A program made the position numbers and the translations under genes. Below, piece after piece: positions 1-14,713 of a stretch of DNA of 15,211 nucleotides (position 1 is its first letter; each line of letters opens with the position of its first letter). Origin of the DNA: Octopus sinensis (taxonomy: Eukaryota); assembly GCF_006345805.1 (NCBI RefSeq), contig NW_021825426.1, forward strand, positions 1 through 15,211. Direction: 5' to 3'. Under the pieces are notes generated by a model. It had not been told where the DNA came from. It did no database searches and saw only the letters and a program-made list of their open reading frames with translations.

Positions 1-639
1 GACTTCTAGCTCTATTTCTTCTTTGATTCAGAATATTCCATATAGTTTAGATAATGTACCAATTATAAGAAACTTAAGTGAACCGTATCTGCTTCCAAAA
101 TAAAGGAAGAATTGGCTTACAGTCTTTTGATAACTTTCTATTCTTTGTTATTTTAAACAAATCTGATCACTTAGTGTTGTCAGTCATCCAAAATACATCC
201 AAAAGCCAACACGTCTGTCGTTTAAATATATTTATATATTTATATATTCCTGACACATCCACGAGTCATGAATTACAAATAAGGAATTTCTAAGAGCTAA
301 GGAGACAGTATACGTAGTCGACTCGAGCAAGCAAAAATAGAAGCCAAATTACTATAAACCCCACAGCCTACTTTTAGAGTCGGTGCCGAAAACGAAAGAC
401 AGACACATTAGATAATGTAGTTCTAAATACCTCTAATATGACGTATGCTTTTGAAAATAGTTCTGATCAGAATTGATCTGAGGTTAATCAACAACTCTGC
501 TCTAACCCAAGCATGAACTAACACCATGAACAGGGACCACACGAAGATATACTCTAATGAGGTCATATTAATCATGTTTTCTTCAATAGCAGAAAGAAAC
601 AACAATTAGAAAATTAATGCCTGTCGCATCAACAATCTT

Positions 640-948
640 CCAAACAGTCATAATAAGATCTTTTAAAGCTACTGCAAGGTTTACACGTCTCTGTCTCTGA
701 AGATTTCTTCTCTGATGATTACACATCCTGAACTTAGCAAAGACTCCGTTGCAAAGACAGACCCATATTCAGGACAAAAACATCACAGTACTCTATTCTC
801 TAAGAACAGTTACCAATATTTCAACTCTCGGTAAGACTCACTTTAAATAAGTAAAGCAGGATTTGCAAAGATTATGATGGTGTTTGAATGTTTACACTAC
901 ATGTTTAAACTAAACACTGCGTCGACTTATATGTGGGAAAATACGGTA
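640..948 (+). mobile_element. Probable 3' end of a decayed pogo/Tigger-like (Tc1/mariner superfamily) DNA transposon
   Basis: 921-948 reverse-complements to TACCGTATTTTCCCACATATAAGTCGAC, resembling TACCGTATTTT-type pogo/Tigger TIRs with a terminal TA. 650-670 translates IIRSFKA, resembling the DDE_1 'QPLDQGIIRSFKA' motif. The partner TIR was not found and the 5' boundary is unknown. Confidence 0.45.
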
Positions 949-960
949 ATCCGTTGACTA

Positions 961-1199
961 AGGCGGTCGAGTTGGCAGAAACGTTAGCACGCCGGACGAA
1001 ATGCTTAGCGGTATTTCGTCTGCCTTTACGTTCTGAGTTCAAATTCCGCCGAGGTCGACTTTGCCTTTCATCCCTTCGAGGTCGATTAAATAAGTACTAG
1101 TTACGTAATGAGATCGATATAATCGACTTAATCCGTTTGTCTGTCCTTGTTTGTCCCCTCTATGTTTAACCCCTTGTGGACAATAAAGAAATAAGAAAG
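961..1199 (+). mobile_element. tRNA-derived SINE, family A (near full length)
   Basis: Head AGGCGGTCGAGTTGGCAGAA, B-box-like GAGTTCAAATTCC, core GAGGTCGACTTTGCCTTTCATCC...AATAAGTAC and A-rich end. At least 6 further copies align by eye within the window. Confidence 0.9.
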
Positions 1200-1213
1200 A
1201 GCTATATATACGA

Positions 1214-1570
1214 GGCCATGCTGGAGCACTGCCTTTAGTAGAACAAGTCGACCCCAGTGCTTATTCTTTCCAAGCTTAGTACTTATTTTATCGGTCTTTT
1301 TTGCCGAACCGCTATGTTACGGAGACGTAAACACACCAACATCAGTTGTCAAGCGATGGTGGTGGTGGGGTGGTGTCAAGCACAGATTCACACACAAATA
1401 CATACACACATATACGATGGGCTTCTTTCAGTTTCCGTTTACCAAATCCACTCACAAGGCTTTGGTCGGCCTGAGACTATATTAGAAGACACTTGCCCAA
1501 GGTGCTACGCAGTGGAACTGAAACCAGAACCATGTGATTTGGAGACAGGTTTCCACATAGCTCTCGCCTA
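1214..1570 (-). mobile_element. Composite CORE-type SINE, family B (tRNA/CORE head + internal microsatellite + tail module)
   Basis: Head about 1413-1570 and tail about 1214-1375 are joined by a (CA)-rich spacer. Both modules are reverse complements of 3752-3917 and 4631-4837. The minus strand has CACCTTGGGCAAGTGTCTT, resembling the MIR CORE motif. Confidence 0.85.
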
Positions 1571-1691
1571 CCAAATTCACAAATTCACTCACTGTACATT
1601 GGTTGGCTGACGGCTATAGGAGAAGACACTTGTCCAAGGTGCCGTGCAATGGGACTGAACTTGGAACCAAGGTGGTTGCAAAGCGAGCTTC
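1565..1691 (-). mobile_element. Partial second family-B SINE head in tandem
   Basis: AGAAGACACTTGTCCAAGGTGCCGTGCAATGGGACTGAAC matches the adjacent head. It has a small CAAATTCA duplication. Confidence 0.8.
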
Positions 1692-1794
1692 ATGCATTTT
1701 CTATAATCATTCCTTTGCCTTTTCTTCTTCTTCAGTTCATGAAACCTCGTTTTTCATCCTTTCCTGGCGTTTATTAATAACTCCCAACGCAGCA

Positions 1795-2400
1795 CTGTCT
1801 CCTCCCCAGCCTTCTCCCTATTCTCCTCCCTTCCTCCGCTCTTCCTCTTCATCTCCTCCTACTCCTCCTATTCTCCATTCTCCTCTTCTCCCCTTCCCTA
1901 CCTTCTTCTTCCCCTTCTCCCTCCTCTACTACCCCTCTCCCTCCTTCCCTTCTTCACATTCCCTCCCCTCCTTCCCCTCCTTCCCCTTCTCCCCATCCAC
2001 TTACCCCTCTTCCCTCCTCCCCTTCTTCCCCATCCAACCCTCCCCTCCTTCCCGAACCCTTCTCCCTTCTCCATTTTTATCCTCTTCCTCTTTCCCTTCT
2101 CCTTTCTCCTCTTCCCCCTCCTTTCTCCTTTTAGCCTCTTCCCCTTCCTTTCTCCTCCTCCTTCCCTGCCCCTTCATCATTCTCCCTCCTCTTCATTGAC
2201 TCTTCTCTTCATGCTCCCTTCTCTTCATTCTTCCTCCTTTTCTTCATTCTGCCTCCTCCTTTTACCCCACCTCTATCTCTTCCTTCCTCTCCCTCATTCT
2301 CCCTTCTCCTCTCTCCTTCTCATTCCCCCTCCCTCCCTCGTCTCCTCTTTATCAACTTCACCTATCCAATCATTTTCCTTTCTATGCCTTCTGTAACTCT
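1795..2400. repeat. About 600 bp polypyrimidine (C/T) low-complexity tract
   Basis: The + strand is almost entirely C/T (CCT, CTT and CCCT motifs). This explains the S/P/F/L-rich ORFs 1603-2199 and 2196-2396. Confidence 0.95.
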
Positions 2401-2542
2401 TTTCCACCTTCCGCCCCATCTTCGCCGTCTTCATCCAACCTTATTTCCGTTTCGTGTTTCTTGAAGCTCTTACGTTTAATAGACCTTATCTATCTTAATC
2501 CGTTCCCATCGAACCTTCTAGATCTTCTTAAATAAATGCACC

Positions 2543-2600
2543 TGCTTTCTAATAAAAGACTGAGGTCGACTTCGAGATAACCGAAACAACATCAAAAGCA
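2543..2600 (+). ncRNA. Degenerate type I hammerhead-like motif (probably inactive)
   Basis: TGCTTT-CTAATAA(for CTGATGA)-...GAGGTCGACTTC...CC-GAAA-CAACA-TC-AAAAGCA. Stem I TGCTTT/AAAAGCA closes the motif. There are two G>A core changes. Confidence 0.4.
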
Positions 2601-2736
2601 CGTGACCGCTATAAATTCTTACGATTAGTCACTCTGATGAAGGTGAAAAATTAGCTCACTTAATAAAGAAAATATCAAGATTATACATTAATTAGAATAT
2701 AAAAAAAAACAAACAAACAAATAAACAAACTCATAT

Positions 2737-2900
2737 GTGCAGTTATGGCCGTGTGGTAAGAAGATTGCTTGCAAGCCATTGTGTTTTGAGTTCAGTCCCA
2801 CTGCGTGGTACCTTGTGCTAGTGTCTTCCAATATAGCCCCGGGTGAAGTTAAGCCTTGAGACTGGATTCGGTAGACGGAAACAGAAAGAAGCTTGTCGTG
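2737..2900 (+). mobile_element. Family-B SINE head (tRNA-like + CORE), followed by (CA)n(TA)n
   Basis: A-box-like TGGCCGTGTGGTAAG, B-box-like GAGTTCAGTCCC, and GGTAGACGGAAACAGAAAGAAGC shared with 3752-3917. Confidence 0.85.
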
Positions 2901-2962
2901 TATACACACATACACACACAGACACACACACACACACACACACACTCATATATATATATATA
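2901..2962. repeat. (CA)n(TA)n microsatellite
   Basis: Direct reading. Confidence 0.95.
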
Positions 2963-2964
2963 TG

Positions 2965-3745
2965 GCTCCGGCTTGCACTATTCTTTTCAGTGATGCTGAG
3001 GTATGCTTTTGGTGACATACAAATTGGTGTCAGATTCCAGTTTCCTACAAGTGGTGGACTATTCAATCATCAGCGTTTCAAAACCAGGACACCAGTATCA
3101 TTCGTGATCTACTTTTTCCAGATAATGCTGCACTAGTAGCTACCTCTTTAGAGGAAGCTCAAGAACTTCTAGACGACACCTTAACCAACCAGACATCTTC
3201 TACAAAGAGTCTCTGAGGACAATCTGCGGTTATTTACTAAAAGACAAAGTTTCTAATGCCGACTTCTTTAGCAAGTGTAAGATTGTAGGAAGTGAGAGCT
3301 TTCTTATACAATCACAATTGCGCTGGGCTGGCCATGTCGTCAGAAAGAATAACCAAAGTCATCATGTACAGCCAGCTTGAGAGTGGACACAGGAAAGTTG
3401 GTCGACCGTGGCTCAGATATAAGGACAAGCTGAAGAGTATCCTCTTAGTGATGAAGATAGCTCAGAACACCATGGAGCGAACGTTCTCGGTACAAACAAA
3501 ATGGAGATCGTTGTGTCAAAATGGCATTAAAAACTTTGTTACAACCAGCATTAACAGGCTTCGTGGGGTGCAAGGCGAACGAGAAAAGCAGTTGCAGATA
3601 TACCACCTACACTGAGCTGTAATCCTCAAACTTGCAACATTTTTAGCCTTCTTTGCAAACTGTTGGTGGCACTTAAATGTCACATTCGGCATAAGCATTA
3701 TAACTGACAAAGAAAAAGTACGTTGTCGGAGCCTCATTCGTCGAT
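2965..3745 (+). mobile_element. 5'-truncated, internally deleted, frameshifted RTE-clade (BovB-like) LINE remnant
   Basis: Translates (across frameshifts) FFSVMLRYAF...GGLFN.QRFK, IRDLLFPDNAAL (the FADD motif mutated, 3115-3126), LRWAGHVVR, YSQLESGHRKVGRPWLRYKDKLK, WRSL and a C-terminal CxxFxxxCxxxxxLKCHIRH zinc-finger-like remnant. These are typical RTE ORF2 motifs. A deletion near 3180 joins the RT core to the downstream region. Confidence 0.9.
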
Positions 3746-3938
3746 ATACATAGACGTAGGAGTGGGTGCGTGGTAAGAAGCTTGCTTCACAACAACATGG
3801 TTGCGGGTTCAGACCTACTGCGTGATACCTTGGGCAAGTGTCTTTTATTATAGCCTCGGGCCGACCAAAGCCTTGTGAGTAGATCTGGAAGACGGAAAAT
3901 GAAAGAAGCCCGTCGAATATATATATATATATGTATAT

Positions 3939-4065
3939 TTATTATATAGAAGGAGCTTCTACAGGACTAGAACTGTTTCATTCAAGAGAAATCTTCAGGA
4001 AGCTTCCTGAAGATTTCTCTTGAATGAACAGTTCTAGTCCTGTAGAAGCTCCTTCTATATAATAA
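3939..4065. repeat. 127 bp loop-less palindrome (64/63 bp arms, one 1-nt indel)
   Basis: Centre AAG|CTT between 4002 and 4003. The arms are exact reverse complements except GTTTC versus GTTC. Confidence 0.97.
3954..4004 (-). ncRNA. Minimal type I hammerhead ribozyme motif (Penelope pLTR type)
   Basis: Minus strand: AGCTTC-CTGAAGA-TTTCTCTTGAAT-GAAA-CAG-TTCTAGTC-CTG-TA/GAAGCT. It has a 6 bp stem I, a 4 bp stem III, a GUA cleavage triplet and a weak stem II. The mirror copy on + (about 4001-4050) lacks one A of GAAA. Confidence 0.75.
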
Positions 4066-4242
4066 TAATTTTACTCTGCTAGTATTGAGTACCTTATTTA
4101 CTGTGGTTAACCCGAATCAACCGGGACCTACATATATTATGTATATATATATATATATATATATGTTAATAAAAATAGAGCATATGCATATATAAACTAT
4201 ATGTACGTACCTACCTCTACATGTACATATACACGCATATGT

Positions 4243-4616
4243 GTACAGGACACCAAAAAGACGTCGAACACATAGCAGACGAAAAACTAGACACAACCAA
4301 GGAACAAGACAAGCAAAAAAAAGGGATACAGGACAATAAGCACAACGAAAAATCCCCTTCTTCATCGCTAAGGTTCATCTACTAAACGTTTCGAAGTAAA
4401 AGCGAGACGTACTTCGTATACTTCGAAGAACTTCCTTCCTACGAAAAGCAAATCAATTAAAATCTGAGATCTTTTCGCAGAGGGTAAAAAAAGCAAAACG
4501 GTAACGACAGTACAAACATATAAACAGTTAAAAAATATATATTAACAGTGGAACAGTGGAAAAATAAATATATAACAGTGAGAGACAGGACAAGGAGAAC
4601 AAGATAAGAAGGGCTG
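4243..4616. mobile_element. Unclassified A-rich insert between (TA)n tracts
   Basis: Complex sequence bounded by TA-rich repeats inside a SINE. Its layout is similar to 7803-8186 (A-rich arms, central CTT[C/T]ATC...TTTCG). The family is not identified. Confidence 0.4.
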
Positions 4617-4838
4617 TTATATATATATATCTGTGTCTGTGTTTGCCCACGACCACCATCGCTTGATAACCGATGTTGGTGTGTTTACATCCCCGTAACT
4701 TAACTGTTCGGCAAAAAGACCGCCAGAATAAGTACTAGGCTTACAAAGAATATGTCCTGGGGTTGATTTATTCGAGTAAAGGCGGTGGTCCAGCATGGCC
4801 GCAGTCAAATGACTGAAACAAGTAAAAGAAAAAAAACA

Positions 4839-4975
4839 ATATATATATATATGCATATGTGTGTATGTGTGTGTGAGTGTGCGTGTTTGTGTATGCATGT
4901 GTGCGCGCGTGTGTGTTAATGTCTGTGCTTATCCCTCACCGACGCTGGACAACTGGTTATGGTTTGCTAACGCCA
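4839..4975 (+). mobile_element. (TA)/(TG) microsatellite plus the start of a family-B SINE tail
   Basis: GTCTGTGCTTATCCCTCACCGACGCTGGACAACTGG aligns with 4634-4680. Confidence 0.6.
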
Positions 4976-5052
4976 AACAGATGTAGATACTTCTCCACAC
5001 ACAACATGGACTAAAATCTTTTTAAGAATCTACGAAATTACAATAATTTTAA

Positions 5053-5085
5053 TGTCATGATTAGCGACAGCGAAACCGGTCGACA
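5053..5085 (+). ncRNA. 33-nt minimal type I hammerhead-like motif with A3-U8 in place of C3-G8
   Basis: TGTC-ATGATTA-GC-GACA-GC-GAAA-CCGG-TC/GACA. Stem I is TGTC/GACA, stem II is 2 bp, stem III is the palindromic ACCGGT, and the cleavage triplet is GUC. Confidence 0.6.
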
Positions 5086-5292
5086 GACACAATATCAAAT
5101 ATATTAAAACATATATCAAAACTATGTAAAGTGTGTGCATTTTCCTTCTTTTATTTTATATAAATATATTTTGCATTACAACTCACCACGTGAGGACAAT
5201 TGAAATTCCTCCCTTTTTGTTACTATATATATATACATGTATACACACACACTCACACACAAATACACACACACATATATATATATCTGTAA

Positions 5293-5490
5293 GTGTGTTT
5301 ATCCACCAGAGATACTTGACAAACGGTGTTGGTTTGATTACAACTCCATAAGCAAACGGCCCGGAAAATAAAACCGATAGAATACGTACCAGACTTAAGT
5401 ACTGCGATAAATTTGTTCGACTGAATCTTTCAAGATTGTGCTCCAGAATGACCGCAGTTTAAATGTTTGTAACAAATAACAGATAAAAGG
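5293..5490 (+). mobile_element. Diverged family-B SINE tail preceded by (TA)(CA) microsatellite (5225-5287)
   Basis: CTTGACAAACGGTGTTGGTTTG...CCGATAGAATACGTAC...GTGCTCCAGAATGACCGCAGT aligns with 4660-4830. Confidence 0.8.
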
Positions 5491-5744
5491 AAGATATGTT
5501 CAAAGCCAAAAGACTTTTCCTATCTTTGATACAGAATCAAAGAAAGCTTGTAATTCGTGCAAATTACTGTGGTCATCTTTTAATTATCAAAGCGTTGCAG
5601 CTGAGATTAAATTGCAAAGATGGCGTCTATTATTGATGTTAGCTTTGACTGGCGGATGTGATCTATAGCTATTATAGGTGAAAATGTCATCAGTTGTACT
5701 ACAACTATGAAATTGGTTATTTTATATTATTATGTACTATTACA

Positions 5745-5967
5745 AGGCGGCAAGCTGGCAGAATCGTTACCGCACAGGATGAAATGCTTAACCGAGCTTC
5801 TGCTCTTTCCATTCTTTCCGAGTTCAAATTCCGCTGAGGTCGACTTAGCCTTTCATTCTTTCACCATCGATATCATAAAGTACCAGTTGAGTACTGGGGT
5901 CGATATAATCGACTAGTATCCTCCCTCAAAATGTTAGGCTTTCGTGACTATACTAGAAAGGAGTATT
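5745..5967 (+). mobile_element. Family-A SINE
   Basis: AGGCGGCAAGCTGGCAGAATCGTT head, GAGTTCAAATTCC and GAGGTCGACTTAGCCTTTCA. Confidence 0.9.
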
Positions 5968-5982
5968 ACGCGTATATATTGA

Positions 5983-6232
5983 TTTCAAATTTTGGCATGG
6001 TACAAGGCCAGCAATGTAAGGGGTGGGGGTAAGTCCATTACATCGACCTCCAGTGTTCAACTGGCACTTATTTTATTGACCCAGTGCTCAACTGGTAATT
6101 GTTTTATCAACCCTGAAATGATAAAAAGGCAAAGTCGACCTCGGCAGAATCTGAACTCAGAACATAAAAGCAGACGAAATGCTGCTAAGCATTTTTCCCA
6201 GCGTGCAAACCGATTCTGCTAGCTTGCCGCCT
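5983..6232 (-). mobile_element. Family-A SINE with an internal tandem duplication of about 32 bp
   Basis: Reverse complement of family A, ending GCTAGCTTGCCGCCT. The unit CCAGTG.TCAACTGG.A.TT.TTTTAT occurs twice at about 6044-6110. Confidence 0.9.
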
Positions 6233-6260
6233 TACACATAGAATTAGATATTGTTACATC

Positions 6261-7092
6261 CGTGGTATGATCAATAAGTATCCGGACTGTTGCTTTAGTA
6301 ACGAAGCTAAGGCATGGAGAATGAAGCCGCCTGGCACAGATTGACCTTGAATTTTTTGAGTTTTATCGTTCTAGTTCACTTTCGCTGTTTACAGCAGTGC
6401 TTGGAAGGAACGTGTGTAGCGTGTGATCGTCGCATTGACCATGACAAAGTTGAGCACAGAACTGGATCAAGTTTTACCAAAAGCTTGGCGATTCCTGCTC
6501 AGAAGTTTTCAAAAAGTTTTCATCGTTCTCGCCAATCAAGGAGATACTGTGCAACTGAAACCTGGGTGTCTTTTTGGTCATCTAAAAACAGTTTTGGCAC
6601 AAACTTTCCAGACATGCGTCTCATACCAAAATGTTCTGTGATAATGGACTGAACTGAACAGTACCTAAACTGCACATCCTCTGATAACTCACGGCTGGTG
6701 ATTCGACGATTTCCCCTTACAGCTGCACGCACATCTGCGATGTTTTTCTCAGTTCTGCTGATTGCAGGTCTCCAGAACGTTCGTCAATATCGACATTTTT
6801 CGGCCATCTTGGAAATGTCTGAACCACTCGAACACTTGTGTATGACTCATAACACTCCTCTCCATACATTTTAACTTTTTTCCGTATGCCTTTTTTCTCT
6901 ATCATGGCCAATACGACCATGACACGCTACACACGTTCGTTCCAAGCACTGCTGTAAACACCAGATGTAAGCAAGAACGTTAACATTTTGTACGCATGCC
7001 CAACATATTTTAAGGTCAATCTGTGTGAAGCGGCTTTACTCTGCGTGTTTTAGCTTCGTTACTATGGCAACAGTTCGAATACATATTGATCA
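6261..7092 (-). mobile_element. Non-autonomous mariner derivative with long inverted ends and N-terminal transposase remnant
   Basis: Inverted ends TGATCAATAAGTATCCGGACTGTTGC...CACAGATTGACCTT (about 6268-6350 versus 7010-7092) and CAGCAGTGCTTGGAAGGAACGTGTGTAGCGTGT (about 6390-6425 versus 6920-6958). The minus strand encodes YGEEC, QVFEWF..F..GR, DERSG, NRRITSRELSE and FVPK (the mariner WVPH/K linker). The DDD catalytic domain is absent. Confidence 0.9.
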
Positions 7093-7352
7093 GAGCTGGC
7101 AGAATCGTTACTATGGCAATAGTTCGAATACTTATTGAGTGAGCTGGCAGAATCGTTGCCAACCGATCCAAATACTTAGCTGTGTTTCTTCCAGTTTTAC
7201 ATATTAGGTTCAAATTCTGCTGAGGTCGACTTTGCCTTTCATGCTTTCGGTGTCAATAAAATAAGTACCAGTTGAGCACCGGAATCACTGTAATTAACTA
7301 GCACCACCCCTAAATTTCAGGTTTCATGCCTTATAATCGAAAGGATCATTAT
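7093..7352 (+). mobile_element. Family-A SINE fused to the mariner end through a junction duplication
   Basis: GAGCTGGCAGAATCGTT head (twice), GGTTCAAATTCTGCTGAGGTCGACTTTGCCTTTCAT and AATAAGTACCAGT. Confidence 0.85.
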
Positions 7353-7708
7353 CCTGGATTGTCAGGTAAATTCGTTCCTTTTTTCCTTTGCTTTCATGTA
7401 TTTCAATACCAACGAGTGATCTCACTTCCTGATTGGTACTTATTTTACCCACTCCAGTAAAATCTTTTATTTTTTTATCTTTTACTTGCTTCAGTCACTG
7501 GACTGTGGCCATGCTGGAACACTGCCATAAATGGTTGACTTGAACATAACGAGCCCAGTACTTATTTCTTAAGTCTAGTACTTACTCGGGTGAATTTCTT
7601 TAACCGAAACGCTATGTTATGGAATCATAAACAAACCAGCACCGGTTGTCAATCGGCAGAGTTGGAGACAAAGCATAGTCAGAAAGGTGAACAGACATGC
7701 ACTCGCAT

Positions 7709-7726
7709 ATAATATGTATATGTATG

Positions 7727-7803
<77 letters not shown>
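7709..7803. repeat. (TA)n(TG)n microsatellite
   Basis: Direct reading. Confidence 0.95.
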
Positions 7804-7805
<2 letters not shown>

Positions 7806-8186
7806 AATGGAACAAAAACGGAATATAGGGCATTAAAACGTTCGGACAGATAGACAATACAAAGGCAGACAAGAAAAACAATAATTAGGACAAATAAAAA
7901 AAAGTCGGGTCATTTTTGGCTTTCTTTTATCAGTCAAGTACCAGAAGTCACGACCATTTCGGACAGTTATACTTGAGATGGTTCGATCTGGTTGTCCTCC
8001 AAAAAGTCTAAGCTAAGAGCATTAGACCCATTTCTAAGGAAGCTAGCGAATGTGTACAGCAACAAAGACAAAAAAAAAGAAAAAACAAACAAACAAACAA
8101 AATACGGAGAACAAGGTACACAATTACGAATACAAGAAATAATAACACGCATCTTTCGACTGAGAACGATTCAAATTTAGCTGGCG
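7803..8186. mobile_element. Unclassified A-rich insert between dinucleotide microsatellites
   Basis: About 380 bp of complex sequence bounded by (TG)n and (TA)n within a family-B SINE. Confidence 0.4.
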
Positions 8187-8368
8187 TATATATATATATA
8201 TATATATATACATATACATACACGCACACACACACACACACACACACGCACACACATATATATATATATATATACATATATATATCAACAAATTTACATA
8301 CATACGGACACACACACATACATACACACCCACACACATATATATTTGTAAATATATATAGATATACA
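8187..8368. repeat. Compound (TA)n/(CA)n microsatellite
   Basis: Direct reading. Confidence 0.95.
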
Positions 8369-8489
8369 TCTGATAAGCTACCATACAGATTTCGTCTACG
8401 AAATTCACTCACAAGGCATTGGTTATCCCGGGACTTTGTAGGAGAAAGCTGCCCAAGGTGCTGCACAGTGGGAATGAAAGATATCAAAT

Positions 8490-8556
8490 CAAACTCAGTG
8501 GTATTTGAACTCAGAACATAAAAGTATTTTGTGCAACCTCGCTATCGATTCTGCCT
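8490..8556 (-). mobile_element. Family-A SINE fragment
   Basis: ATTTGAACTCAGAACATAAAAG...CGATTCTGCC matches 6149-6220. Confidence 0.7.
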
Positions 8557-8609
8557 GACATCAAACGTTCAATAAAAAGTTTAAAAGTTAAATATTGAAT
8601 TGAGTCACG

Positions 8610-8835
8610 AGGTGGGGGGAGGGGCGTCTACGTGGTTGGTCAACTTGCTTGAAATAGCAACCAAATCTCCTTGATAATGAAATGGGCGTATAGGGTGATT
8701 AATGTGAACCTGAGTTATCTCCTCATTGAAAAAATAAAAGATGGATGGTTGTAGCTGGAATGCAGTTTATTATAGGCTTTCTCAATGAGAGTTAAACTAG
8801 GGCTAAGCAACAACAAAACAACAACAACAACAACC
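8610..8835 (+). mobile_element. Possible retroposon 3' end with (CAA)n tail
   Basis: Complex sequence ending GGGCTAAGCAACAACAAAACAACAAC. It is single-copy in this window, so the call rests on the tail and on recalled similarity to octopus repeats. Confidence 0.35.
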
Positions 8836-8980
8836 ATAAGGACAACAATAGTAACACCATCAATAACTATAAGAACCAGCTTCTGATTAGTGTCAATTAT
8901 GAAATATCCAGATTATGACTGATATCCGAGATAAATAAATGAGAACCCAATCTTGCCCAGCTATATCTGGTGTCATGGTA

Positions 8981-9044
8981 GTTATGTTGTTGGTGGTGTT
9001 GTTGGTGCTACTGCTACTGCAGCTGTTGCTACTACTACTACTAC

Positions 9045-9075
<31 letters not shown>

Positions 9076-9146
9076 GCTACGATCGATATGTTTGTGTGTC
9101 TGAGTGTATTTGCGTCTTTGCGTATGTGTGCATGTGTGTGTATATG

Positions 9147-9193
<47 letters not shown>

Positions 9194-9203
9194 TATATAT
9201 ATG

Positions 9204-9272
<69 letters not shown>

Positions 9273-9440
9273 TATATATATACATATATATATCAAGGGC
9301 TGAAATATGTGCGCATGTGTTGTGTATATAATCTATACAATATCTGTGTGTGTGTGTGCGTGTATATGTTTGTATATGTATACATACACGTATATATATG
9401 CACATAAATATACATACATACAAAAGTATGTATGTGTGTA
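8981..9440. repeat. (GTT)/(CTA)n followed by long (TA)/(TG)/(CATA) microsatellites
   Basis: Direct reading. Confidence 0.9.
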
Positions 9441-9917
9441 TCTATTGTAGTTAATCCTCTTAATCAATATGCTTGGGCTCCTTGTCCACTTTAAGGTGGA
9501 GGACAACTATGATAGCAAATTCAATAAACTGTAATCTATGCATTTCTGCTCTGTTGGTGATTCGTCTTTCGCTGATAAACGATATTTGCATGTTATTAAT
9601 TATATATGACAATGTTGTGAGATAAATAGCATTTTTGCTAGGATTATCATTCACAATTAGATGTGAATTGCAATGGTAGTGAACTACCACCGCACATGAT
9701 CCAATGAACCAATGAATAATAGGTAGATCTTACCATAGCGCTATAGAATATAGCAATAATTATCAGTGATAAAAGATTCCGTTGATTAAATAATTGTGTC
9801 CACCATTAATATCATTGATGCTGTATCTGTGTATACATACATAAATCTACACGTGCATTACACACACACACGCGCACACTCATAAACGTATATATTATTA
9901 CTGAATGTATATATGTC

Positions 9918-9951
<34 letters not shown>

Positions 9952-10250
9952 TGAAGGAATGATACAAAGTAGCATTCAACATATTTGTCTGGAGATACAC
10001 GCATTCAGTAATAGTTTGACTCAGCGCCAGTCTGCATCGCGGAACATCTGATATATATATATATATATATATTTCCGTCTTTCCTGAGCGTCCAATAATG
10101 CTATATTTGTTCCACGTGCTCGCGTTGTTGTGTTTTTTTGTGCTTTCTTGTTTGGATTAACTTTATATATATATATATGTATATATATATACGAGCGAGC
10201 AGAGAAACTGAAAGAATGGTACTCAACACATTTATTGGAAGTTAAATGTG

Positions 10251-10414
10251 TGGATCAAACAGATTGATTCAAATTCCTTGGTACTTTAAGTTTCAAGCGT
10301 TATGCTAGTCGTCAGCCACTTGAATTAGAATATATTCTAATTCCAATGGCTGAAGACGAGCATCATGCTTGAGACTTAAAGTACCAAAGAATCTGAATCA
10401 ATCTGCTTGATCCA
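10251..10414. repeat. 164 bp loop-less palindrome (82 bp arms, about 10 mismatches)
   Basis: TGGATCAAACAGATTGATTC...AGAATA|TATTCT...GAATCAATCTGCTTGATCCA, with the centre between 10332 and 10333 and no indels. Confidence 0.95.
10267..10331 (-). ncRNA. Minimal type I hammerhead ribozyme motif
   Basis: Minus strand: ATTCTAATTCAAGTGG-CTGACGA-CTAGCATAACGCTT-GAAA-CTTAAAG-TA/CCAAGGAATTTGAAT. It has an extended stem I, a near-palindromic stem III and a GUA triplet. The mirror on + has CTGAAGA (10350-10356) but GAGA in place of GAAA (10371-10374). Confidence 0.75.
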
Positions 10415-10645
10415 TCCATCCATCCATCCATCCATCCATCCATCCATCCATCCATCCATCCATCCATGCATGCATGCATGCATGCATGCATACATACATA
10501 CATACATACATACATACATACATACATACATACATACATACATGCATGCATGCATACATACATACATACATACATACATACGTACATACATACATACAGA
10601 CATACATGCATACATATTTATATATAAATACATATTTATATATAC
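10409..10645. repeat. Compound (CCAT)n(GCAT)n(ACAT)n tetranucleotide microsatellite
   Basis: Direct reading. Confidence 0.95.
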
Positions 10646-10647
10646 GT

Positions 10648-12228
10648 ACAGCATATGGAAGAAGTTTAGGGACCACAAAAATCAGGAGAGGCATCTTCCA
10701 AGGGGACTGCCTATCCTTAATGATCTTTGCACTGTTCATGATGCCACTAACACTGATTCTAAGGAAAGCAAAAGCTGGGTATGTATCCAAGAGCCGCCAA
10801 CAAAAAGTCAATCATTTGTTATTCATGAATGACCTCAAACTTTATGGTAAAGATAAATTCCAAGTCAGTTCCCTCGTTGATACGGTGTATACTTTCAGTG
10901 TTGATATCCGAATGGAGTTCGGACTGAAAAAGTGTGGTGTGTTAGTCTTCAAGAGAGGCAAAATCAAATGAATGGACGGGCTAGCGATACCGTCGGGAGA
11001 GGTTACGAAGCAAATAGAAGAGACGGGCGATAAGTACTTGGGGATATTGGAAATGGATAAATTGATGGAGAAAGAAATGACAGAAAAATTTAAGGTGGAG
11101 TACTTGCGCAGACTGAGACTGATACTTAAGTTGAAATGAAACTGACGGAATAAGATTGAAGCTCTCAAATCTTAGGCGGTTTCACTCTTAAGATATGGAG
11201 TAGGGGTAATCGCATGAACTGTAGACGAACTAAACAGCTTAGACAGATAGACAAGGCACTTGCTGACTAAATATGGAATACTCCAACCAAAAAGTGACAC
11301 AGACAGACTGTCTGTGCCAAGAAAAAGACGGGGAAGAGGACTGATTGGATGCGAACACAGCATTATAGCAGAGAAAACCAACATGCGCGTAGCATGGTAT
11401 GTAAAAATGCTACAGTACTATTCTAATGTAGGATGGAACATTGCAAAGATAGCGCACTGTACAAGTACTTGAGAATGAATGAAACTGAAAAATAGGTGGA
11501 TAAAGAAAAGAATGCATGGGCAATTCCATAGGGATGTTGAAGACAGAGAAAAAAGATGGCTATGGATGACTAAAAGTGATTTAAAACCGGACACGGATGT
11601 TCTAATCTGTGATGCCTAAGTGCAAGCATTAAGAACCAATTACATCAAATACAGAATAGATAACACACCAGAAAGTGATAAATGCCGAATTTGTGGATAA
11701 AACGGTAAAACTCTATGGCATATTACCAGTCAATGTACACCACTAGCCCAGAAAGAATATAAGAGACATCATGACAATTTAGCAAGGCCTGTCCATTGGT
11801 CACTTTGTAACAGGTATGGACTTGACAGAGAAAAAATGTGGTACGAACATAATCCCGAAGGCATCATCGAAAATGATAATGCAAAGATCCTATGGGATTT
11901 TATGATTCAGTGCGACCATAATCTAGAGAATAGGAAACCAGACATAGTATTAATTGAGAAAGAAAGCAAACAATGCTGGATCATAGATATAGCATGCCCA
12001 GCTGACAACAAGGTATGCTATAAAGAAGAAAGAAAAGTCGATAGATATAATAGGTTAGCTTCGGAAGGTAAGCAGTTGTGGTCGCTGAAAAAGGTGGCAG
12101 TAGTACCAATAGTTGTCGGAGCCCTGTGAACAGTGAGTAAATATATTGAGAAGTACATGGAACAAATAGGGCTGCAATAAGGGTGGAGCATTTGCAGAAA
12201 ACCGCACTGCTTGGAACCACACGAAAAT
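10648..12228 (+). mobile_element. 5'-truncated, pseudogenised R4/Dong-clade non-LTR retrotransposon (RT + CCHC + restriction-like endonuclease)
   Basis: [24 protein letters not shown] (MDD mutated, 10822-10833), MEFGLKKC, KYLGILE, GRGL, MHGQF, CRIC...WHITSQC knuckle (11683-11736), RHHDN, LWDF, RKPDIVL...IDIACP (PD-(D/E)xK), PIVVGAL and LQKTALLGT. It has many stops and frameshifts. Confidence 0.92.
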
Positions 12229-12261
12229 GTCGACATACACGTGGAACCACACGTGTATGTC

Positions 12262-12408
12262 TATATTGCCCCTTCCGTTTCCCAGTTCGAAAGGGATGCC
12301 CCTCGACTGTTCTAACTTCCGCAGCAGTGGCTCGAGTGCCAATACGTACAGAAGAGGCGACAGCAAGTGTTCCAAACAGTTCCGATAAGTGATCGTTTAC
12401 TTTGACCC
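12262..12408 (-). mobile_element. Short L1/Tx1-clade reverse transcriptase fragment
   Basis: The minus strand encodes VKVNDHLSELF and then, after a deletion of the RQGCP segment, LSPLLYVLALEPLLRKL...GIP. This is a characteristic L1/Tx1 RT motif. Confidence 0.8.
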
Positions 12409-12410
12409 CC

Positions 12411-12453
<43 letters not shown>

Positions 12454-12509
12454 TAGTAATAATAATAATAATAGTAGTAGTAGTAGGTAGTAGGTAGTAG
12501 TAGTAGTAA
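12411..12509. repeat. (TAA)n/(TAG)n microsatellite
   Basis: Direct reading. Confidence 0.95.
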
Positions 12510-12682
12510 TTTTGCCACGAGGGCAGCTTTGGGGAAGGGGAATAAGTCGATTACGTCGACACCAGTGTGTAACTGGTACTTATTTAATCGACTCCGAAAG
12601 GCAAAGTCGACCTCGGTGAAATTTGAACTTAGATCGTAAAAACGGAAGAAACATTGCTTGGTATTTTGCAAGGTCGCCGCCT
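12510..12682 (-). mobile_element. Family-A SINE with internal deletions
   Basis: AACTGGTACTTATTTAATCGAC...AAAGGCAAAGTCGACCTCGG...ATTTGAACT...TCGCCGCCT. Confidence 0.85.
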
Positions 12683-12683
12683 C

Positions 12684-12723
<40 letters not shown>

Positions 12724-12743
12724 TGATGGTGATGATGATGATA

Positions 12744-12965
12744 ATAATCTTTTCTACTTGAGAAGCAAGGCCTCAAATTTAGCGGAGAGGGGACTAGTCG
12801 ATTAAATCAACCCCAGTGTTTCATTGGTACTTAATTTATCGACCGCGAAATTGATGAAACGGAAAGCCGATCTCGGCGGAATTTGAACTCAGAACACGTA
12901 GCGACGAGTGAAATACCACTCAGCATTTCGCCCGGCGTGCTAACTTTTCTGCCAGCTCGCCGCCT
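12744..12965 (-). mobile_element. Family-A SINE, full length
   Basis: GGTACTTAATTTATCGAC...CTCGGCGGAATTTGAACTCAGAAC...CTGCCAGCTCGCCGCCT, flanked by (TAA)/(TGA) repeats. Confidence 0.9.
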
Positions 12966-12968
12966 TCT

Positions 12969-13038
12969 TAATGATGATGATAATAATAATAACAATAATA
13001 CCCCAGTGTTACTTTGATGGCATGCACTGCTCTCTCAC

Positions 13039-13081
<43 letters not shown>

Positions 13082-13160
13082 TAATAATAATAACAATGAT
13101 AATAACAACAATAATAATAATAGCAATAATAAAGATGATGATGATGATGATGATGATGAT
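12969..13160. repeat. (TAA)/(CAA)/(TGA)n microsatellite with a 40 bp unique island (13000-13040)
   Basis: Direct reading. Confidence 0.9.
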
Positions 13161-13582
13161 GAAAATAAAATCTTTTTATTAGTATTGTATTCGTATTGTT
13201 GATCTTTTTCACTCAATGTTAATCCATCGTTGTTGCTGTTTTTTTGTCGTTTTTCCTTTGTTGTTAACCTCTGTACTAACCCTGACACCTTAGGCCCTTG
13301 TGGACAATAAAAGATGTAATTATCATTATAATTATATTTATAAATACTAATTGACAAACCTAGAAGACAAACGCAACTAAATACTTACATAGATACAATA
13401 CATACACAAGCGCGTACACACACATTGTGCGAGAGTGTTAACGACTCATTCACTTCGCTGGTCTTCTGTTTGTAAAACGATTTGTGTATAGTGGCTAGAT
13501 ATTTATAAGACTGTAATGAATCGATTTTGTTGTCTCTGATTTAACTTGACATCAATAGGCAATCTGTCGAACTTCATATTTG

Positions 13583-13920
13583 TACACACACAAATACACA
13601 CACACAAACACACACACAAACACACACGCACACACAAATACACTCACACACACACGCGCGCAAACAAACACACACACACGCATACATATACATATAAATA
13701 TACACACACATATGTACTGACACACAAACACACACACACACACAAACACATATTTGTGCAATATACACAGACATATATATATACACACACACACGCACAT
13801 GTACGTATGCACTCACATACTCACATACATATATAGACACACATACACACACACATATATAAGCACACACAATATACACACACGCAAACATATATATATG
13901 TATGCATGTGTATGTATGCA
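13583..13920. repeat. Degenerate (CA)n/(TA)n microsatellite
   Basis: Direct reading. Confidence 0.9.
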
Positions 13921-13991
13921 ATCTAGACAACGGTAAACGTATATATGTATTCATGTGTAGGTATGTAATCTAGACGACGGTAAAAACTGTA

Positions 13992-14063
13992 CATCGGACG
14001 CGAGAATCGAACCCGGTGTCTGCAGTAAGCTGTATAACAATGCTAACCACTACACAAAGTTAA
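13992..14063 (-). pseudogene. Degenerate tRNA-like sequence (tRNA pseudogene or SINE head)
   Basis: Minus strand has A box TGTAGTGGTTAG (14043-14054), B box GGTTCGATTC (14004-14013), a plausible D arm, an imperfect T arm and TTTTT just downstream (13982-13986). Acceptor and anticodon stems do not close. Confidence 0.65.
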
Positions 14064-14160
14064 CATCACAATTTCAACCGTCCGGTTAGAGACATCAGCA
14101 TTATAAGTACAGAAGCTGATTTACATACATACAGTCACACATGCATGTGTTAATACTGTT

Positions 14161-14164
14161 TATG

Positions 14165-14224
<60 letters not shown>

Positions 14225-14280
14225 GATATATAATATATATATTATATATATATATATATATGTATATTATATATATATAA
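14161..14280. repeat. (TA)n microsatellite
   Basis: Direct reading. Confidence 0.95.
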
Positions 14281-14520
14281 ATTTAAAATAATAATGGTGA
14301 AAAATTGAATATTAATTTGATTAATATCAATTCAAAACCAGTGGTCCAGTATATAGAAAAATCTGAAGATTCAGAAAAATTATATTACATACATATGAGG
14401 AATGACCACTAAGTGGACATCCATTATACTAGAAGTCGACCCACAACGGTCTTACCACTATGGTCTTACCGCCAGAACGTAAGCGAGTAAGACATGAAAA
14501 GATACAAAATATAGAGATCA

Positions 14521-14592: not shown

Positions 14593-14713
14593 CGTCATAG
14601 CAAAATATTATTTGAAGAACTATACACGAAACGTCCGCATGAGATCGAACATGTTTATAGTTCTACCAATTAAATGTGGGGTTATATTTCAAAAGTCTTC
14701 GTTTTTGTGTGCC

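What the first reader, a model, noticed from the sequence alone, without database searches (positions are those of the whole stretch)
3939..4128. Second, near-perfect hammerhead palindrome whose only defect hits the catalytic GAAA
Seen: 127 bp palindrome with a single 1-nt indel, which removes one A of GAAA in the + strand copy while the minus copy is intact. The 5' strand of stem I (AGCTTC) overlaps the symmetry centre AAGCTT, so the fold-back point is the ribozyme's own stem. Its tail shares TTGAGTACC (4085-4093) with the tail of the other palindrome (10218-10226, minus), although the ribozyme stems differ. Both units abut (TA)n. Inference: a recurrent fold-back or self-priming integration mechanism in related PLE pLTR families. 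Near-identical arms suggest a young insertion or arm-to-arm conversion.
Basis: partly seen in the sequence, partly recalled or inferred. Interest (0 to 1): 0.75.

Follow-up and report, generated by a model that had tools for sequence, protein, structure and literature searches.

The report
Head-to-head hammerhead retroelement insertion copy
The palindrome is one slightly damaged copy of a young repeat present at least 480 times in this genome, likely made when two DNA copies of one short hammerhead-bearing RNA are joined head to head during insertion into a TA repeat, a structure already described for Penelope-like retroelements.

Summary
Window 3939-4065 is a 127-nt palindrome with one 1-nt indel. 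That indel removes an A from the GAAA box of the + strand hammerhead motif, and the minus-strand motif is complete.

The palindrome is not a local event. The 190-nt unit is one member of a 97-100% identical dispersed family. I counted 482 tight palindrome-plus-tail copies and 1,893 exact 46-nt hammerhead arms in the 2.72-Gb genome.

In 100 sampled copies the central junction takes 57 different forms: 4-nt AGCT overlap, small deletions and fillers. The only shared substitution sits in both arms in 15 of its 16 carriers. So the palindrome is rebuilt at each insertion rather than inherited.

Arm ends cluster at one nucleotide, +1, which is the first base of stem I. It lies 29 nt downstream of a TATAAAT box, and 41 of 50 scorable arm ends carry an untemplated extra G there. 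I read +1 as a capped RNA 5' end (inferred).

One arm ends at +137 (the tail) and the other near +68. Flanks are (TA)n.

The missing A is an ordinary homopolymer deletion, seen in 3 of 100 other copies. It is one of five deletions in this copy.

No RT/EN ORF was found, so Penelope-like mobilisation is inferred. Head-to-head pLTRs, tails and self-priming are already published. This is a new member of a known kind.

The parts
3777..3932 (.). SINE-like dispersed repeat. Its TA-rich end supplies the left part of the target microsatellite. This is context, not part of the element.
   Evidence: Inverted 156-nt match at 79% to 1398-1553 (I1). The same repeat end lies beside other copies of the family, for example L024 and L027.
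3916..3938 (.). Left (TA)n flank, the target microsatellite.
   Evidence: In 100 sampled copies, 84 left flanks are 14-mers made only of A and T.
3939..4004 (-). Inverted, tail-less arm, family positions about +66 to +1 read on the minus strand. It carries a complete hammerhead motif at 4004-3954, with the predicted cut between 3960 and 3959.
   Evidence: In the family this arm ends at +68 in 69 of 100 copies and between +61 and +76 in 94 of 100.
3998..4007 (.). Junction GGAAGCTTCC. The two arms each end in ..AGCT and overlap by those 4 nt.
   Evidence: This perfect junction class makes up 26 of 96 non-duplicate sampled copies.
4001..4065 (+). Direct arm, from +1 onward. Its hammerhead motif at 4001-4050 lacks one A of GAAA (GAA at 4026-4028). 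The would-be cut lies between 4044 and 4045.
   Evidence: My descriptor finds no + strand motif. The same deletion is in the tail-side arm of 3 of 100 other copies.
4066..4128 (+). The tail, present on one side only. It is 63 nt here and 69 nt (+69..+137) in majority copies. It ends ..GGGACCTAC and contains TTGAGTACC at 4085-4093.
   Evidence: The right arm ends at +137 in 93 of 100 copies and at +136 in 6. No copy of 100 has a tail on both sides.
4129..4166 (.). Right (TA)n flank.
   Evidence: In 100 sampled copies, 84 right flanks are 14-mers made only of A and T.

Best explanation
Window 3939-4128 is one mutated copy of a young dispersed repeat of about 196 bp that sits in (TA)n, and its palindrome was likely made at insertion by joining two oppositely primed cDNA copies of one short capped hammerhead-bearing RNA at their 3' ends.

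Shown directly:
- The family exists and has hundreds of copies.
- Junctions are variable and rebuilt independently.
- Shared variants are symmetric between the two arms.
- Arm ends cluster at +1.
- One arm ends at +137 and the other near +68.
- Flanks are (TA)n.

Inferred:
- A promoter in the parent element (TATAAAT at -29..-23) would start transcription at the A of AGCUUCC, the first base of hammerhead stem I.
- A Penelope-like RT/endonuclease supplied in trans would nick both strands of a (TA)n target.
- One 3' end would prime in the (UA)n that follows +137. The other would prime on the UA-rich stretch +57..+68.
- Both cDNAs would run to the cap and often add one C there.
- The two ..AGCT-3' ends would then anneal, since AGCT is self-complementary, or be joined with small deletions or fillers.

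The hammerhead is carried along uncleaved. Its cleavage is not needed for this step and is untested.

The confidence given is for the whole statement. That this is a family copy whose palindrome is rebuilt at each insertion I hold at about 0.9. That a Penelope-like enzyme moves it I hold at about 0.65. That two separately primed cDNAs, rather than one self-primed cDNA, make the arms I hold at about 0.55.
For: Family.
- A DNA search of the own genome gave 829 first-look candidates. The 40 scored were all 97-100% identical.
- All 29 other fetched loci show the same palindrome, the same tail and (TA)n flanks.
- Exact-pattern counts, each with a reversed-pattern control of 0: 1,893 hammerhead arms; 482 tight palindrome-plus-tail copies; 1,599 arm-to-tail joints; 873 arms ending at +68 followed by (TA)n.

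The palindrome is made anew at each insertion.
- There are 57 distinct junction strings in 100 copies.
- In 96 non-duplicate copies the classes are: perfect 26, one nt short 11 + 7, filler 21, deeper 31. The classes perfect, one-short and deeper are found in both the A-type and the T-type lineage.
- The only shared substitution (+11 A>T, position N7 of the core) is in both arms in 15 copies and in one arm in 1 copy. The other 76 variant events are one-arm and mostly singletons.

+1 is a discrete RNA end.
- Spacings of inverted arm pairs are 51-66 nt or else 226 nt and more among the first 100 arms.
- Only 15 head-to-head junctions lie within 12 nt of +45.
- Where fillers let the arm ends be read, arms reach +1 or +2 (the aligner placed 4 arm ends at -2, where the filler ends in the same letters as the parent's -2/-1).
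- TATAAAT lies 29 nt upstream in parent copies.
- The next base after a left arm that reaches +1 is C in 22 of 24 copies. The base before a right arm that reaches +1 is G in 19 of 26 copies. The parent has T at -1.
- Only 6 arms in the genome start at +1 directly after an 8-mer of A/T only.

Two 3' ends.

Penelope-like context.
- The GIY-YIG family PF01541 gave 5,029 first-look candidates. Of 150 scored, 147 were over the cut-off, with open frames up to 883 aa.
- Published Penelope-like features match. These are: an inverted 5'-truncated copy, a one-sided tail and a (TA)n target (PMC8557442, passages); both target strands cleaved and extended, with two RT start sites that bracket the tail and the uncleaved RNA used as substrate (PMC11167929, parts 1-2); and TATA/Inr in the pLTR with palindromes at inverted junctions (PMC3846280, passages).
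Against: - No RT or endonuclease ORF was found. Ten ORFs of 150 aa or more and 42 sense ORFs of 60 aa or more from long copies gave 0 Pfam hits. Collinear homology runs 3 kb or more upstream and is repeat-rich.
- The 30 best GIY-YIG loci share no similarity with either family. The mobilising enzyme is therefore unidentified.
- Both arms cover the same RNA stretch, +1..+68. One RNA molecule cannot simply template both cDNAs. This needs two RNAs, strand displacement, or copying of one arm from the other.
- Arms of mixed type occur in 1 copy, against about 26 of 100 expected if two RNAs were drawn at random from the pool. That fits one template or self-copying at least as well as two RNAs.
[quoted passage not shown] My TA/UA pairing step assumes it is.
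- The start site and the cap are inferred from DNA only. No usable RNA data were found.
- The hammerhead has a U.U pair at 10.1/11.1. It has no Rfam match. Its fold is no more stable than shuffles, z = 0.05.
- The sample of 100 copies was drawn with a pattern that allows only 44-74 nt between anchors. The tails of the junction distribution are therefore cut off.
Confidence: 0.6

Rival explanations
1. Self-priming or fold-back of a single cDNA. One target-primed cDNA reaches the RNA 5' end. Its 3' end then turns back and copies itself, and the new strand is joined to the other target end at the TA-rich stretch near +68.
For: - Arms almost always carry the same variant, 15 symmetric carriers against 1 mixed.
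- Some fillers are templated copies of nearby arm sequence, for example in L070, L120 and L088.
- The 'C ... G' found around fillers would also follow if the second arm copies the first.
- Self-priming was proposed from palindromes at inverted junctions in rotifer Penelope elements (PMC3846280).
Against: - The commonest junction is a spacer-less perfect palindrome, 26 of 96. An intramolecular hairpin cannot form it, because a 4-nt AGCT cannot pair with itself without a loop.
- One copy, L138, has arms of different type.
- The discrete end near +68 needs an extra assumption.
- The only purified Penelope-like enzyme studied extends both target strands (PMC11167929).
Confidence: 0.22
2. The palindrome was formed once, or a few times, and the finished palindromic unit was then amplified from master copies.
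For: - The first 29 loci found with the window as query all have the identical perfect junction.
- Some junction strings recur at unlinked loci: 7 copies of one string, 6 of another and 4 of a third.
Against: - There are 57 junction strings in 100 copies.
- The same junction classes occur in the A-type and T-type lineages, whose defining base is changed in both arms.
- One-arm variants are mostly singletons rather than shared.
- Tight copies lack the upstream TATA region.
- The 29 identical junctions reflect selection by similarity to the query.
Confidence: 0.04
3. It is a DNA transposon of the MITE or foldback type that targets TA, and not a retroelement product.
For: It is short, palindromic, high in copy number and always in TA-rich DNA.
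Against: - The two outer ends are not inverted repeats of each other. One ends near +68 and the other at +137.
- The centre varies while the ends are fixed.
- Arms extend to variable lengths, up to a 4.2-kb palindrome.
- Arm ends carry an untemplated G.
Confidence: 0.02
4. The hammerhead-like motif is not an active ribozyme. It would be a relic or a structural RNA element kept for another reason, such as protein binding or dimerisation. This rival concerns the ribozyme only and can be true together with any of the insertion models.
For: - There is no Rfam hammerhead hit at E <= 10.
- The 10.1/11.1 position is a U.U pair where G-C is the rule in Penelope-like hammerheads (PMC4209133).
- The fold is not unusually stable. 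In the 137-nt context the minimum-energy fold prefers a competing hairpin.
- Arms starting exactly at the cut site are rare, 2-3 loci.
- The published enzyme system does not need cleavage.
Against: - All invariant core positions are present: CUGANGA, GAAA and GUA. The three helices are in the right order.
- The isolated 50-nt RNA has the hammerhead fold as its minimum-energy structure.
- The only lineage-level substitution falls on N7, the one free core position.
- Loop III holds the palindrome CUAG, as expected for dimeric metazoan hammerheads.
- Family 2 keeps the same core with different helices and has one covarying pair.
Confidence: 0.3
5. The palindrome is an assembly or library fold-back artefact.
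For: - The window is the whole of a small 15,211-base contig.
- The copy differs from the majority only by deletions. That pattern could be consensus error.
Against: - There are 482 copies of the same architecture on chromosome-scale contigs, with locus-specific flanks and junctions.
- Contigs of a run guessed to be RNA (X14; it may be DNA, study P6) carry the junction as a loose end; no laid DNA run showed it.
Confidence: 0.01

Closest known systems
Inverted pLTR / head-to-head insertion structure of endonuclease-positive Penelope-like elements (PMC3846280, PMC8557442, PMC11167929; passages or parts read)
   Same: - An inverted 5'-truncated copy abuts the direct copy.
- A palindrome sits at the junction.
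- A one-sided 3' tail is present.
- A TATA box lies upstream.
- A hammerhead lies in the terminal repeat.
- Targets are AT-rich or (TA)n.
- There are two 3' end positions that bracket the tail.
   Different: - No RT/GIY-YIG ORF is present in the element, even in copies with 3 kb or more of shared upstream sequence.
- The tail is 69 nt rather than 30-40 nt.
- The minimal form, two arms that both stop at +1, is the dominant outcome.
- Direct pLTR pairs were not demonstrated.
Type I hammerhead ribozymes of metazoan repeats and Penelope-like elements (PMC4209133, parts 1-2 read)
   Same: - The CUGANGA and GAAA boxes and a GUH cut site are present.
- Helix I is open and 6 bp long, and helix II is short.
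- Loop III is palindromic (CUAG), which suggests dimers.
- Paired motifs on opposite strands 100-700 bp apart were noted in Schistosoma.
   Different: - 10.1/11.1 is U.U where G-C is usual.
- Helix III is 4 bp with an 8-nt loop, not 1-2 bp.
- There is no extra base after A9 in this family, though one is present in family 2.
- No Rfam model matches.
L1 twin priming (recalled: Ostertag and Kazazian 2001; only search listings were seen)
   Same: Both target strands prime cDNA, the two cDNAs are joined with microhomology, and the product holds an inversion.
   Different: In L1 the inverted and direct parts copy different, adjacent stretches of one RNA. Here both arms copy the same stretch, +1..+68, right up to the RNA 5' end.
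Animal non-LTR retrozymes (bioRxiv 10.64898/2026.07.22.740005; abstract and passages read)
   Same: They are short non-coding hammerhead-bearing repeats, proposed to be non-autonomous derivatives of Penelope-like terminal sequences.
   Different: Retrozymes are head-to-tail tandem arrays thought to pass through circular RNA. Here direct pairs are rare (for example one 310-nt pair, L037), inverted pairs dominate, and cut-site ends are rare.

Membership tests
Hammerhead ribozyme, type I | Core box C3-U4-G5-A6-N7-G8-A9 | tested here: met
   CUGAAGA is on the minus strand at 3998-3992 and on the + strand at 4007-4013. A sub-lineage has CUGAUGA in both arms.
Hammerhead ribozyme, type I | Core G12-A13-A14 followed by A15.1 (GAAA) | tested here: met
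   The minus-strand copy has GAAA at 3979-3976. The + strand copy of this window has GAA only, at 4026-4028, so it fails this feature. The GAAA context is intact in both arms in 27 of 29 and 93 of 100 other copies.
Hammerhead ribozyme, type I | Cleavage triplet N-U-H followed by the 3' strand of helix I, with three helices in the order I-core-II-GAAA-III-UH-I | tested here: met
   GUA at 3962-3960. Helix I is 6 bp, helix II is 3 bp plus U.U, and helix III is 4 bp. My own descriptor finds it, with 2 hits in 300 shuffled windows. The hammerhead fold is the minimum-energy fold of the isolated 50 nt, at -8.1 kcal/mol, z = 0.05.
Hammerhead ribozyme, type I | G10.1-C11.1 closing pair of helix II (near-universal, per PMC4209133) | tested here: not met
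   U.U is at this position. Family 2 has U.U or G.U.
Hammerhead ribozyme, type I | Match to a curated Rfam hammerhead covariance model | tested here: not met
   There is no hammerhead family among 0 gathering-score matches, 122 matches at E <= 10 on the window, or 31 matches on 3900-4140.
Hammerhead ribozyme, type I | Self-cleavage | not testable with these tools
   This needs a transcription and cleavage assay. Indirect evidence: only 2-3 head-to-head loci have an arm that starts exactly at the predicted cut product.
Penelope-like element (endonuclease-positive) | ORF with a telomerase-like RT and a GIY-YIG endonuclease | tested here: not met
   0 of 10 ORFs and 0 of 42 ORFs hit any Pfam family. 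There is no similarity to the 30 best GIY-YIG loci. At most this is a non-autonomous passenger.
Penelope-like element (endonuclease-positive) | Head-to-head inverted 5'-truncated copy beside the direct copy | tested here: met
   482 tight copies. Inverted pairs have arms from 69 nt to 2.1 kb.
Penelope-like element (endonuclease-positive) | Optional 3' tail present at one end only, between two cDNA start sites | tested here: met
   The ends are at +137 (93 of 100) and near +68 (69 of 100). No copy of 100 has two tails. The tail is 69 nt, longer than the published 30-40 nt.
Penelope-like element (endonuclease-positive) | AT-rich or (TA)n target preference | tested here: met
   Flanking 14-mers made only of A and T: right 84 of 100, left 84 of 100.
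Penelope-like element (endonuclease-positive) | Direct terminal repeats (pLTRs) from partial tandem insertion | tested here: inconclusive
   A few direct pairs were seen, at 218, 310 and 779 nt spacing. No full pLTR-body-pLTR unit was defined.
Animal non-LTR retrozyme | Head-to-tail tandem repeats, each unit with a hammerhead | tested here: not met
   Among the first 100 arms on contig C1, inverted pairs dominate and direct pairs are rare.
L1-type twin priming | Inverted and direct segments derive from adjacent, non-overlapping parts of the RNA | tested here: not met
   Both arms cover +1..+68.
MITE / foldback DNA transposon | Terminal inverted repeats at the two outer ends | tested here: not met
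   The outer ends are near +68 and at +137 of the same sense sequence, so they are not inverted copies of each other.

The most novel reading that the evidence does not exclude
Cap-to-cap joining is the default way this class of retroelement completes integration. Both strands of a (TA)n target prime cDNA on a short promoter-proximal transcript. Both cDNAs run to the cap, and the self-complementary first four bases of the RNA (AGCT, the start of hammerhead stem I) let the two cDNA ends anneal. The 5'-terminal palindrome and the position of the ribozyme at the very start of the RNA would then be part of the integration signal. The hundreds of young junctions in this genome would be a natural record that settles how Penelope-type inverted repeats arise: from sense, capped templates, and not from antisense self-priming.
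Probability: 0.3. Interest if true: 0.6.

Novelty: new member of a known kind. Interest (0 to 1): 0.4.

Why it matters
How Penelope-like elements integrate, and why they leave inverted repeats with palindromic junctions, is still an open question in the papers I read. This family offers hundreds of nearly undecayed insertions. The junction, both 3' ends and an apparent cap footprint can be read base by base in each.

That turns the question into something testable: sense or antisense template, one cDNA or two, cleaved or uncleaved RNA.

For annotation, the result is more modest. This locus is an ordinary repeat copy, and its 'defect' carries no functional message. Such loci produce long perfect hairpins that score as microRNA-like in Rfam (55 bits against a 100-bit threshold) and should not be called as such.

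Tried and rejected
- Rfam, three searches. There was no hammerhead hit. The sub-threshold microRNA and snoRNA matches only reflect the hairpin and the microsatellites.
- A covariance model built from 24 family-2 hammerhead regions. It finds both family-2 arms in the window (83 and 76 bits) but not the family-1 motif at E <= 10 with filters off. It gives no cross-family support.
- A family-2 nhmmer profile against the family-1 arm gave only a spurious 22-nt match, and it gave nothing against the 30 GIY-YIG loci. blastn of both families against those loci also gave nothing.
- My first hammerhead descriptor was too strict. It missed even the positive controls, and I replaced it.
- The search for the coding partner failed. 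ORF scans were empty. The exact tail 35-mer count (1,276) shows no large second family that shares the tail. A 10-mer seen as a loose end in reads was in none of the loci stored at that point (L001-L180).
- Sequencing runs. No RNA holder was listed. All 24 runs are kept as contigs, and 'RNA' is only a guess for some. Contig ends near +1 occur in DNA runs too, because that is a branch point of the repeat. Nothing can be said about transcription starts, ends or cleavage. Uneven cover along the stretch is not interpreted.
- The earlier-findings index holds nothing for this genome.
- Papers on octopus repeats (search listing plus passages of PMC13282606) only show that Penelope-like elements are counted among recently active repeats in an octopus. 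I did not establish what organism this window comes from.
- I considered a splice acceptor at ..CTAG|C as the reason for the arm ends and rejected it. Arms reach +1 or +2, which is upstream of that point.
- I considered Pol III termination at the TTTT run (+72..+75) as the origin of the tail-less ends. This was left untested.
Full report
**1. The observation**

The sequence at 3939-4065 is a palindrome of 64 + 63 nt. The repeat finder splits it into a 39-nt arm pair and a 26-nt arm pair, each 100% complementary, offset by one base. The only difference between the arms is TTT at 3976-3978 against AA at 4027-4028.

Read as RNA, the minus strand carries every invariant element of a type I hammerhead:
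- stem I AGCUUC (4004-3999) pairing with GAAGCU (3959-3954);
- CUGAAGA (3998-3992);
- a short stem II (UUC/GAA with loop UCUU, closed by a U.U pair);
- GAAA (3979-3976);
- stem III ACAG/CUGU with the loop UUCUAGUC;
- GUA (3962-3960).

The + strand copy (4001-4050) has GAA in place of GAAA. The centre GGAAGCTTCC (3998-4007) holds the 5' strand of stem I of both copies. The shared 9-mer TTGAGTACC is at 4085-4093, and its reverse complement is at 10218-10226.

I wrote a descriptor after seeing the sequence, so it is not an independent test. It finds the minus-strand motif, finds none on the + strand, and hits 2 times in 300 shuffled windows.

Against the motif, no Rfam hammerhead model matches. 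This holds at gathering score, at E <= 10 on the window and on 3900-4140 alone. The isolated 50-nt RNA does take the hammerhead fold as its minimum-energy structure, but at -8.1 kcal/mol it is no more stable than shuffles (z = 0.05). In the 137-nt context a competing hairpin wins.

**2. It is a repeat family, not a local event**

A DNA search of the window's own genome (2.72 Gb; the window is the whole of contig C1897) gave 829 first-look candidates. All 40 that were scored were 97-100% identical. All 29 other loci fetched show the same palindrome, the same tail ending ..GGGACCTAC, and (TA)n on both sides.

Exact-pattern counts, each with a reversed-pattern control of zero:

| Pattern | Count |
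|---|---|
| 46-nt hammerhead arm | 1,893 |
| Tight palindrome plus tail | 482 |
| Arm running into the tail | 1,599 |
| Arm ending at +68 followed by (TA)n | 873 |
| Arm continuing at least 13 nt upstream of the palindrome centre | 1,118 |

The GAAA context is intact in both arms in 27 of 29 and in 93 of 100 other copies. The same one-A deletion is in the tail-side arm of 3 of 100 copies.

Against a majority-type copy, the window's unit has five deletion events (6 nt) and no substitution. The 'defect in the catalytic GAAA' is therefore one of several small homopolymer-type deletions in this copy. They may even be consensus errors of a small contig. I could not test that, because reads from the other copies swamp this one.

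**3. The palindrome is rebuilt at each insertion**

I fetched the first 100 places of the tight-copy pattern (contigs C1-C3). That order does not depend on similarity to the window.

- The centre takes 57 different forms.
- After dropping four local duplicates, 96 copies remain. Of these, 26 have the perfect GGAAGCTTCC, 11 and 7 are one base short on one side or the other, 21 carry fillers of 1-13 nt (some copied from nearby arm sequence), and 31 have an arm that ends a few bases inside.
- The only substitution shared by many copies turns CUGAAGA into CUGAUGA. This is N7, the one free position of the core. It is present in both arms in 15 copies and in one arm in 1 copy.
- All other differences are in one arm only and are mostly singletons: 76 events in 40 copies, over about 10,600 compared positions.
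- The T-type copies show the perfect, one-short and deeper junction classes of the A-type copies; none of the 15 has a filler.

Shared variants that are symmetric, private variants that are asymmetric, and junctions that recur independently in two lineages are what de novo formation from a one-armed template predicts. A palindromic master copy predicts the opposite.

The pattern I used allows only 44-74 nt between its anchors. The extremes of the junction distribution are therefore cut off.

**4. Where the arms stop**

I number from the A of AGCUUCC as +1.

- In junctions whose fillers let both ends be read, arms reach +1 or +2; in 4 copies the aligner put an arm end at -2, where the filler ends in the parent's own -2/-1 letters.
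- Among the first 100 hammerhead arms on contig C1, inverted pairs are spaced either 51-66 nt (eight pairs) or 226 nt and more.
- Only 15 head-to-head junctions in the whole genome lie within 12 nt of +45, against 482 around +1.
- Parent copies continue upstream as ..TATAAATG(C/G)CAATACAATTCTTGTTAACT, which puts TATAAAT at -29 to -23.
- In non-perfect junctions, the base that follows a left arm reaching +1 is C in 22 of 24 copies. The base that precedes a right arm reaching +1 is G in 19 of 26. The parent has T at -1.

An extra G at the 5' end of retro-copies is the known footprint of reverse transcription reaching a cap. That statement is recalled knowledge and was not checked here. I therefore read +1 as the capped start of a transcript driven by the upstream TATA box. 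I read its coincidence with the start of stem I as the reason the symmetry centre lies in the ribozyme's stem. This is inference from DNA.

Only 6 arms in the genome start at +1 directly after an 8-mer of A/T only. Full-length ends are thus almost always resolved by joining to a second, inverted copy.

Only 2-3 loci have an arm that starts exactly at the predicted cleavage product. Self-cleaved RNA is rarely, if ever, the template. This agrees with the in vitro finding that uncleaved RNA is the main substrate (PMC11167929).

**5. The outer ends**

- The tail-side arm ends at +137 in 93 of 100 copies, and at +136 in 6.
- The other arm ends at +68 in 69 of 100 copies and between +61 and +76 in 94.
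- Six copies reach +89 to +103.
- None of the 100 has a tail on both sides.
- Flanking 14-mers consist only of A and T in 84 of 100 copies on each side.
- The stretch +57..+68 is itself UA-rich, and +137 is always followed by (TA)n.

**6. Mechanism**

The best-supported reading is that two cDNAs are primed from the two strands of a nicked (TA)n target. One starts in the (UA)n after +137 and the other on the UA-rich stretch near +68. Both run to the cap. Their ..AGCT-3' ends anneal, or are joined with small losses or fillers.

This matches the one purified Penelope-like enzyme studied. That enzyme cleaves and extends both strands and starts reverse transcription at two internal sites that bracket the tail. 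Its hammerhead cut lies 85-92 nt upstream of the start (PMC11167929). Here the distance is 93 nt.

Weak points:
- Both arms copy the same RNA stretch.
- The arms are almost never of mixed type: 1 copy, against about 26 of 100 expected for random pairs of RNAs.

These facts fit one template, or copying of one arm from the other, as well as they fit two RNAs. Self-priming of a single cDNA therefore remains a serious rival. Against it, the commonest junction is a spacer-less perfect palindrome, and one copy (L138) has arms of different type.

**7. Is it a Penelope-like element?**

The architecture says yes. The features are a head-to-head inverted copy, a one-sided tail, a TATA box, a hammerhead and a (TA)n target (PMC8557442; PMC3846280). 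The genome is also full of GIY-YIG endonuclease domains: 5,029 first-look candidates, 147 of 150 scored over the cut-off, with open frames up to 883 aa.

The defining ORF is missing, however.
- Long copies share collinear sequence for 3 kb or more upstream of the hammerhead, and that sequence is rich in low-complexity repeats.
- 10 ORFs and 42 sense ORFs gave no Pfam hit.
- The 30 best endonuclease loci share nothing with the family.

I file it as a non-coding passenger that works like a Penelope-like terminal repeat, with an unknown partner.

**8. The second family in the window**

The second family (10190-10425) has the same architecture. It is older, at 73-88% identity (937 first-look candidates, 40 scored). 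It also has a hypervariable junction region.

Its hammerhead keeps the core with different helices and shows one covarying pair in helix III (CG in 14 copies, UA in 8). In the named structure 82% of cells are paired, against 17-57% when partners are slid.

The two families are not alignable, and a model of one does not find the other. The majority form of the shared 9-mer in family 2 is TTGAGTGCC. 'Related families' therefore rests on architecture alone.

**9. Novelty**

The following are all in print:
- head-to-head inverted pLTRs with palindromic junctions, and the idea of self-priming (PMC3846280);
- tails and the microsatellite bias (PMC8557442);
- two-strand extension (PMC11167929);
- hammerheads in these repeats, including pairs on opposite strands (PMC4209133).

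My two searches for this specific family or for cephalopod hammerhead repeats and one for twin priming in Penelope-like elements turned up no description of it. Those searches cover only the held library.

What this genome adds is a large, young set of junctions with an apparent cap footprint. That set bears on the open question of whether the template is sense or antisense.

Verdict: a real feature, correctly seen. It is a new member of a known kind and of moderate interest to specialists.

Noticed in passing
window 10246-10419 (tail 10190-10245 on the minus strand): This is a second hammerhead palindrome from an older family, 73-88% identical among copies, with 937 first-look candidates in the genome. 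It has the same head-to-head-plus-tail architecture. The minus arm has GAAA and the + arm has GAGA. The tail side abuts (TA)n and the other side runs into (CCAT)n and then (CATG/CATA)n.
   Followed up: partly
window 1398-1553 and 3777-3932; also 969-1130, 5816-5929, 7140-7301, 14716-14877: These are SINE-like dispersed repeats in both orientations. The one at 3777-3932 ends in the TA run that received the hammerhead unit. The same repeat end lies beside other copies of the family (L024, L027). From memory it resembles cephalopod SINEs, but I did not test that.
   Followed up: no
window 1-15211 as a whole: The window is the entire unplaced contig C1897. It is dense in (TA)n, (CA)n, (CATA)n, (TAA)n and CT-rich low-complexity runs. 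These produce many sub-threshold mir-297/mir-466-type Rfam matches, all of them artefacts of the microsatellites.
   Followed up: no
L034 (G000:C1:78583900-78588800): This locus is a 4.2-kb near-perfect palindrome (93%) made of two long inverted copies of the same element. It shows that the head-to-head join also happens far upstream of the hammerhead.
   Followed up: partly
L055/L056, L071-L073, L141/L142: Neighbouring copies, 0.36 to 18 kb apart, have identical junction strings. These are local or segmental duplications of finished insertions rather than independent events. I dropped one member of each pair and two of the trio (four loci) from the junction counts.
   Followed up: partly
L037:447-452 (read laying loose ends): Contigs of several runs join the tail from about +72 onward to a different upstream sequence. 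This hints at another element family that shares the 3' tail and could be the coding partner. That upstream sequence was in none of my stored loci.
   Followed up: partly
window 9667-9720: There is a weak match (14 bits, E = 0.56) to the family-2 hammerhead model. It may be a decayed fragment of that family.
   Followed up: no
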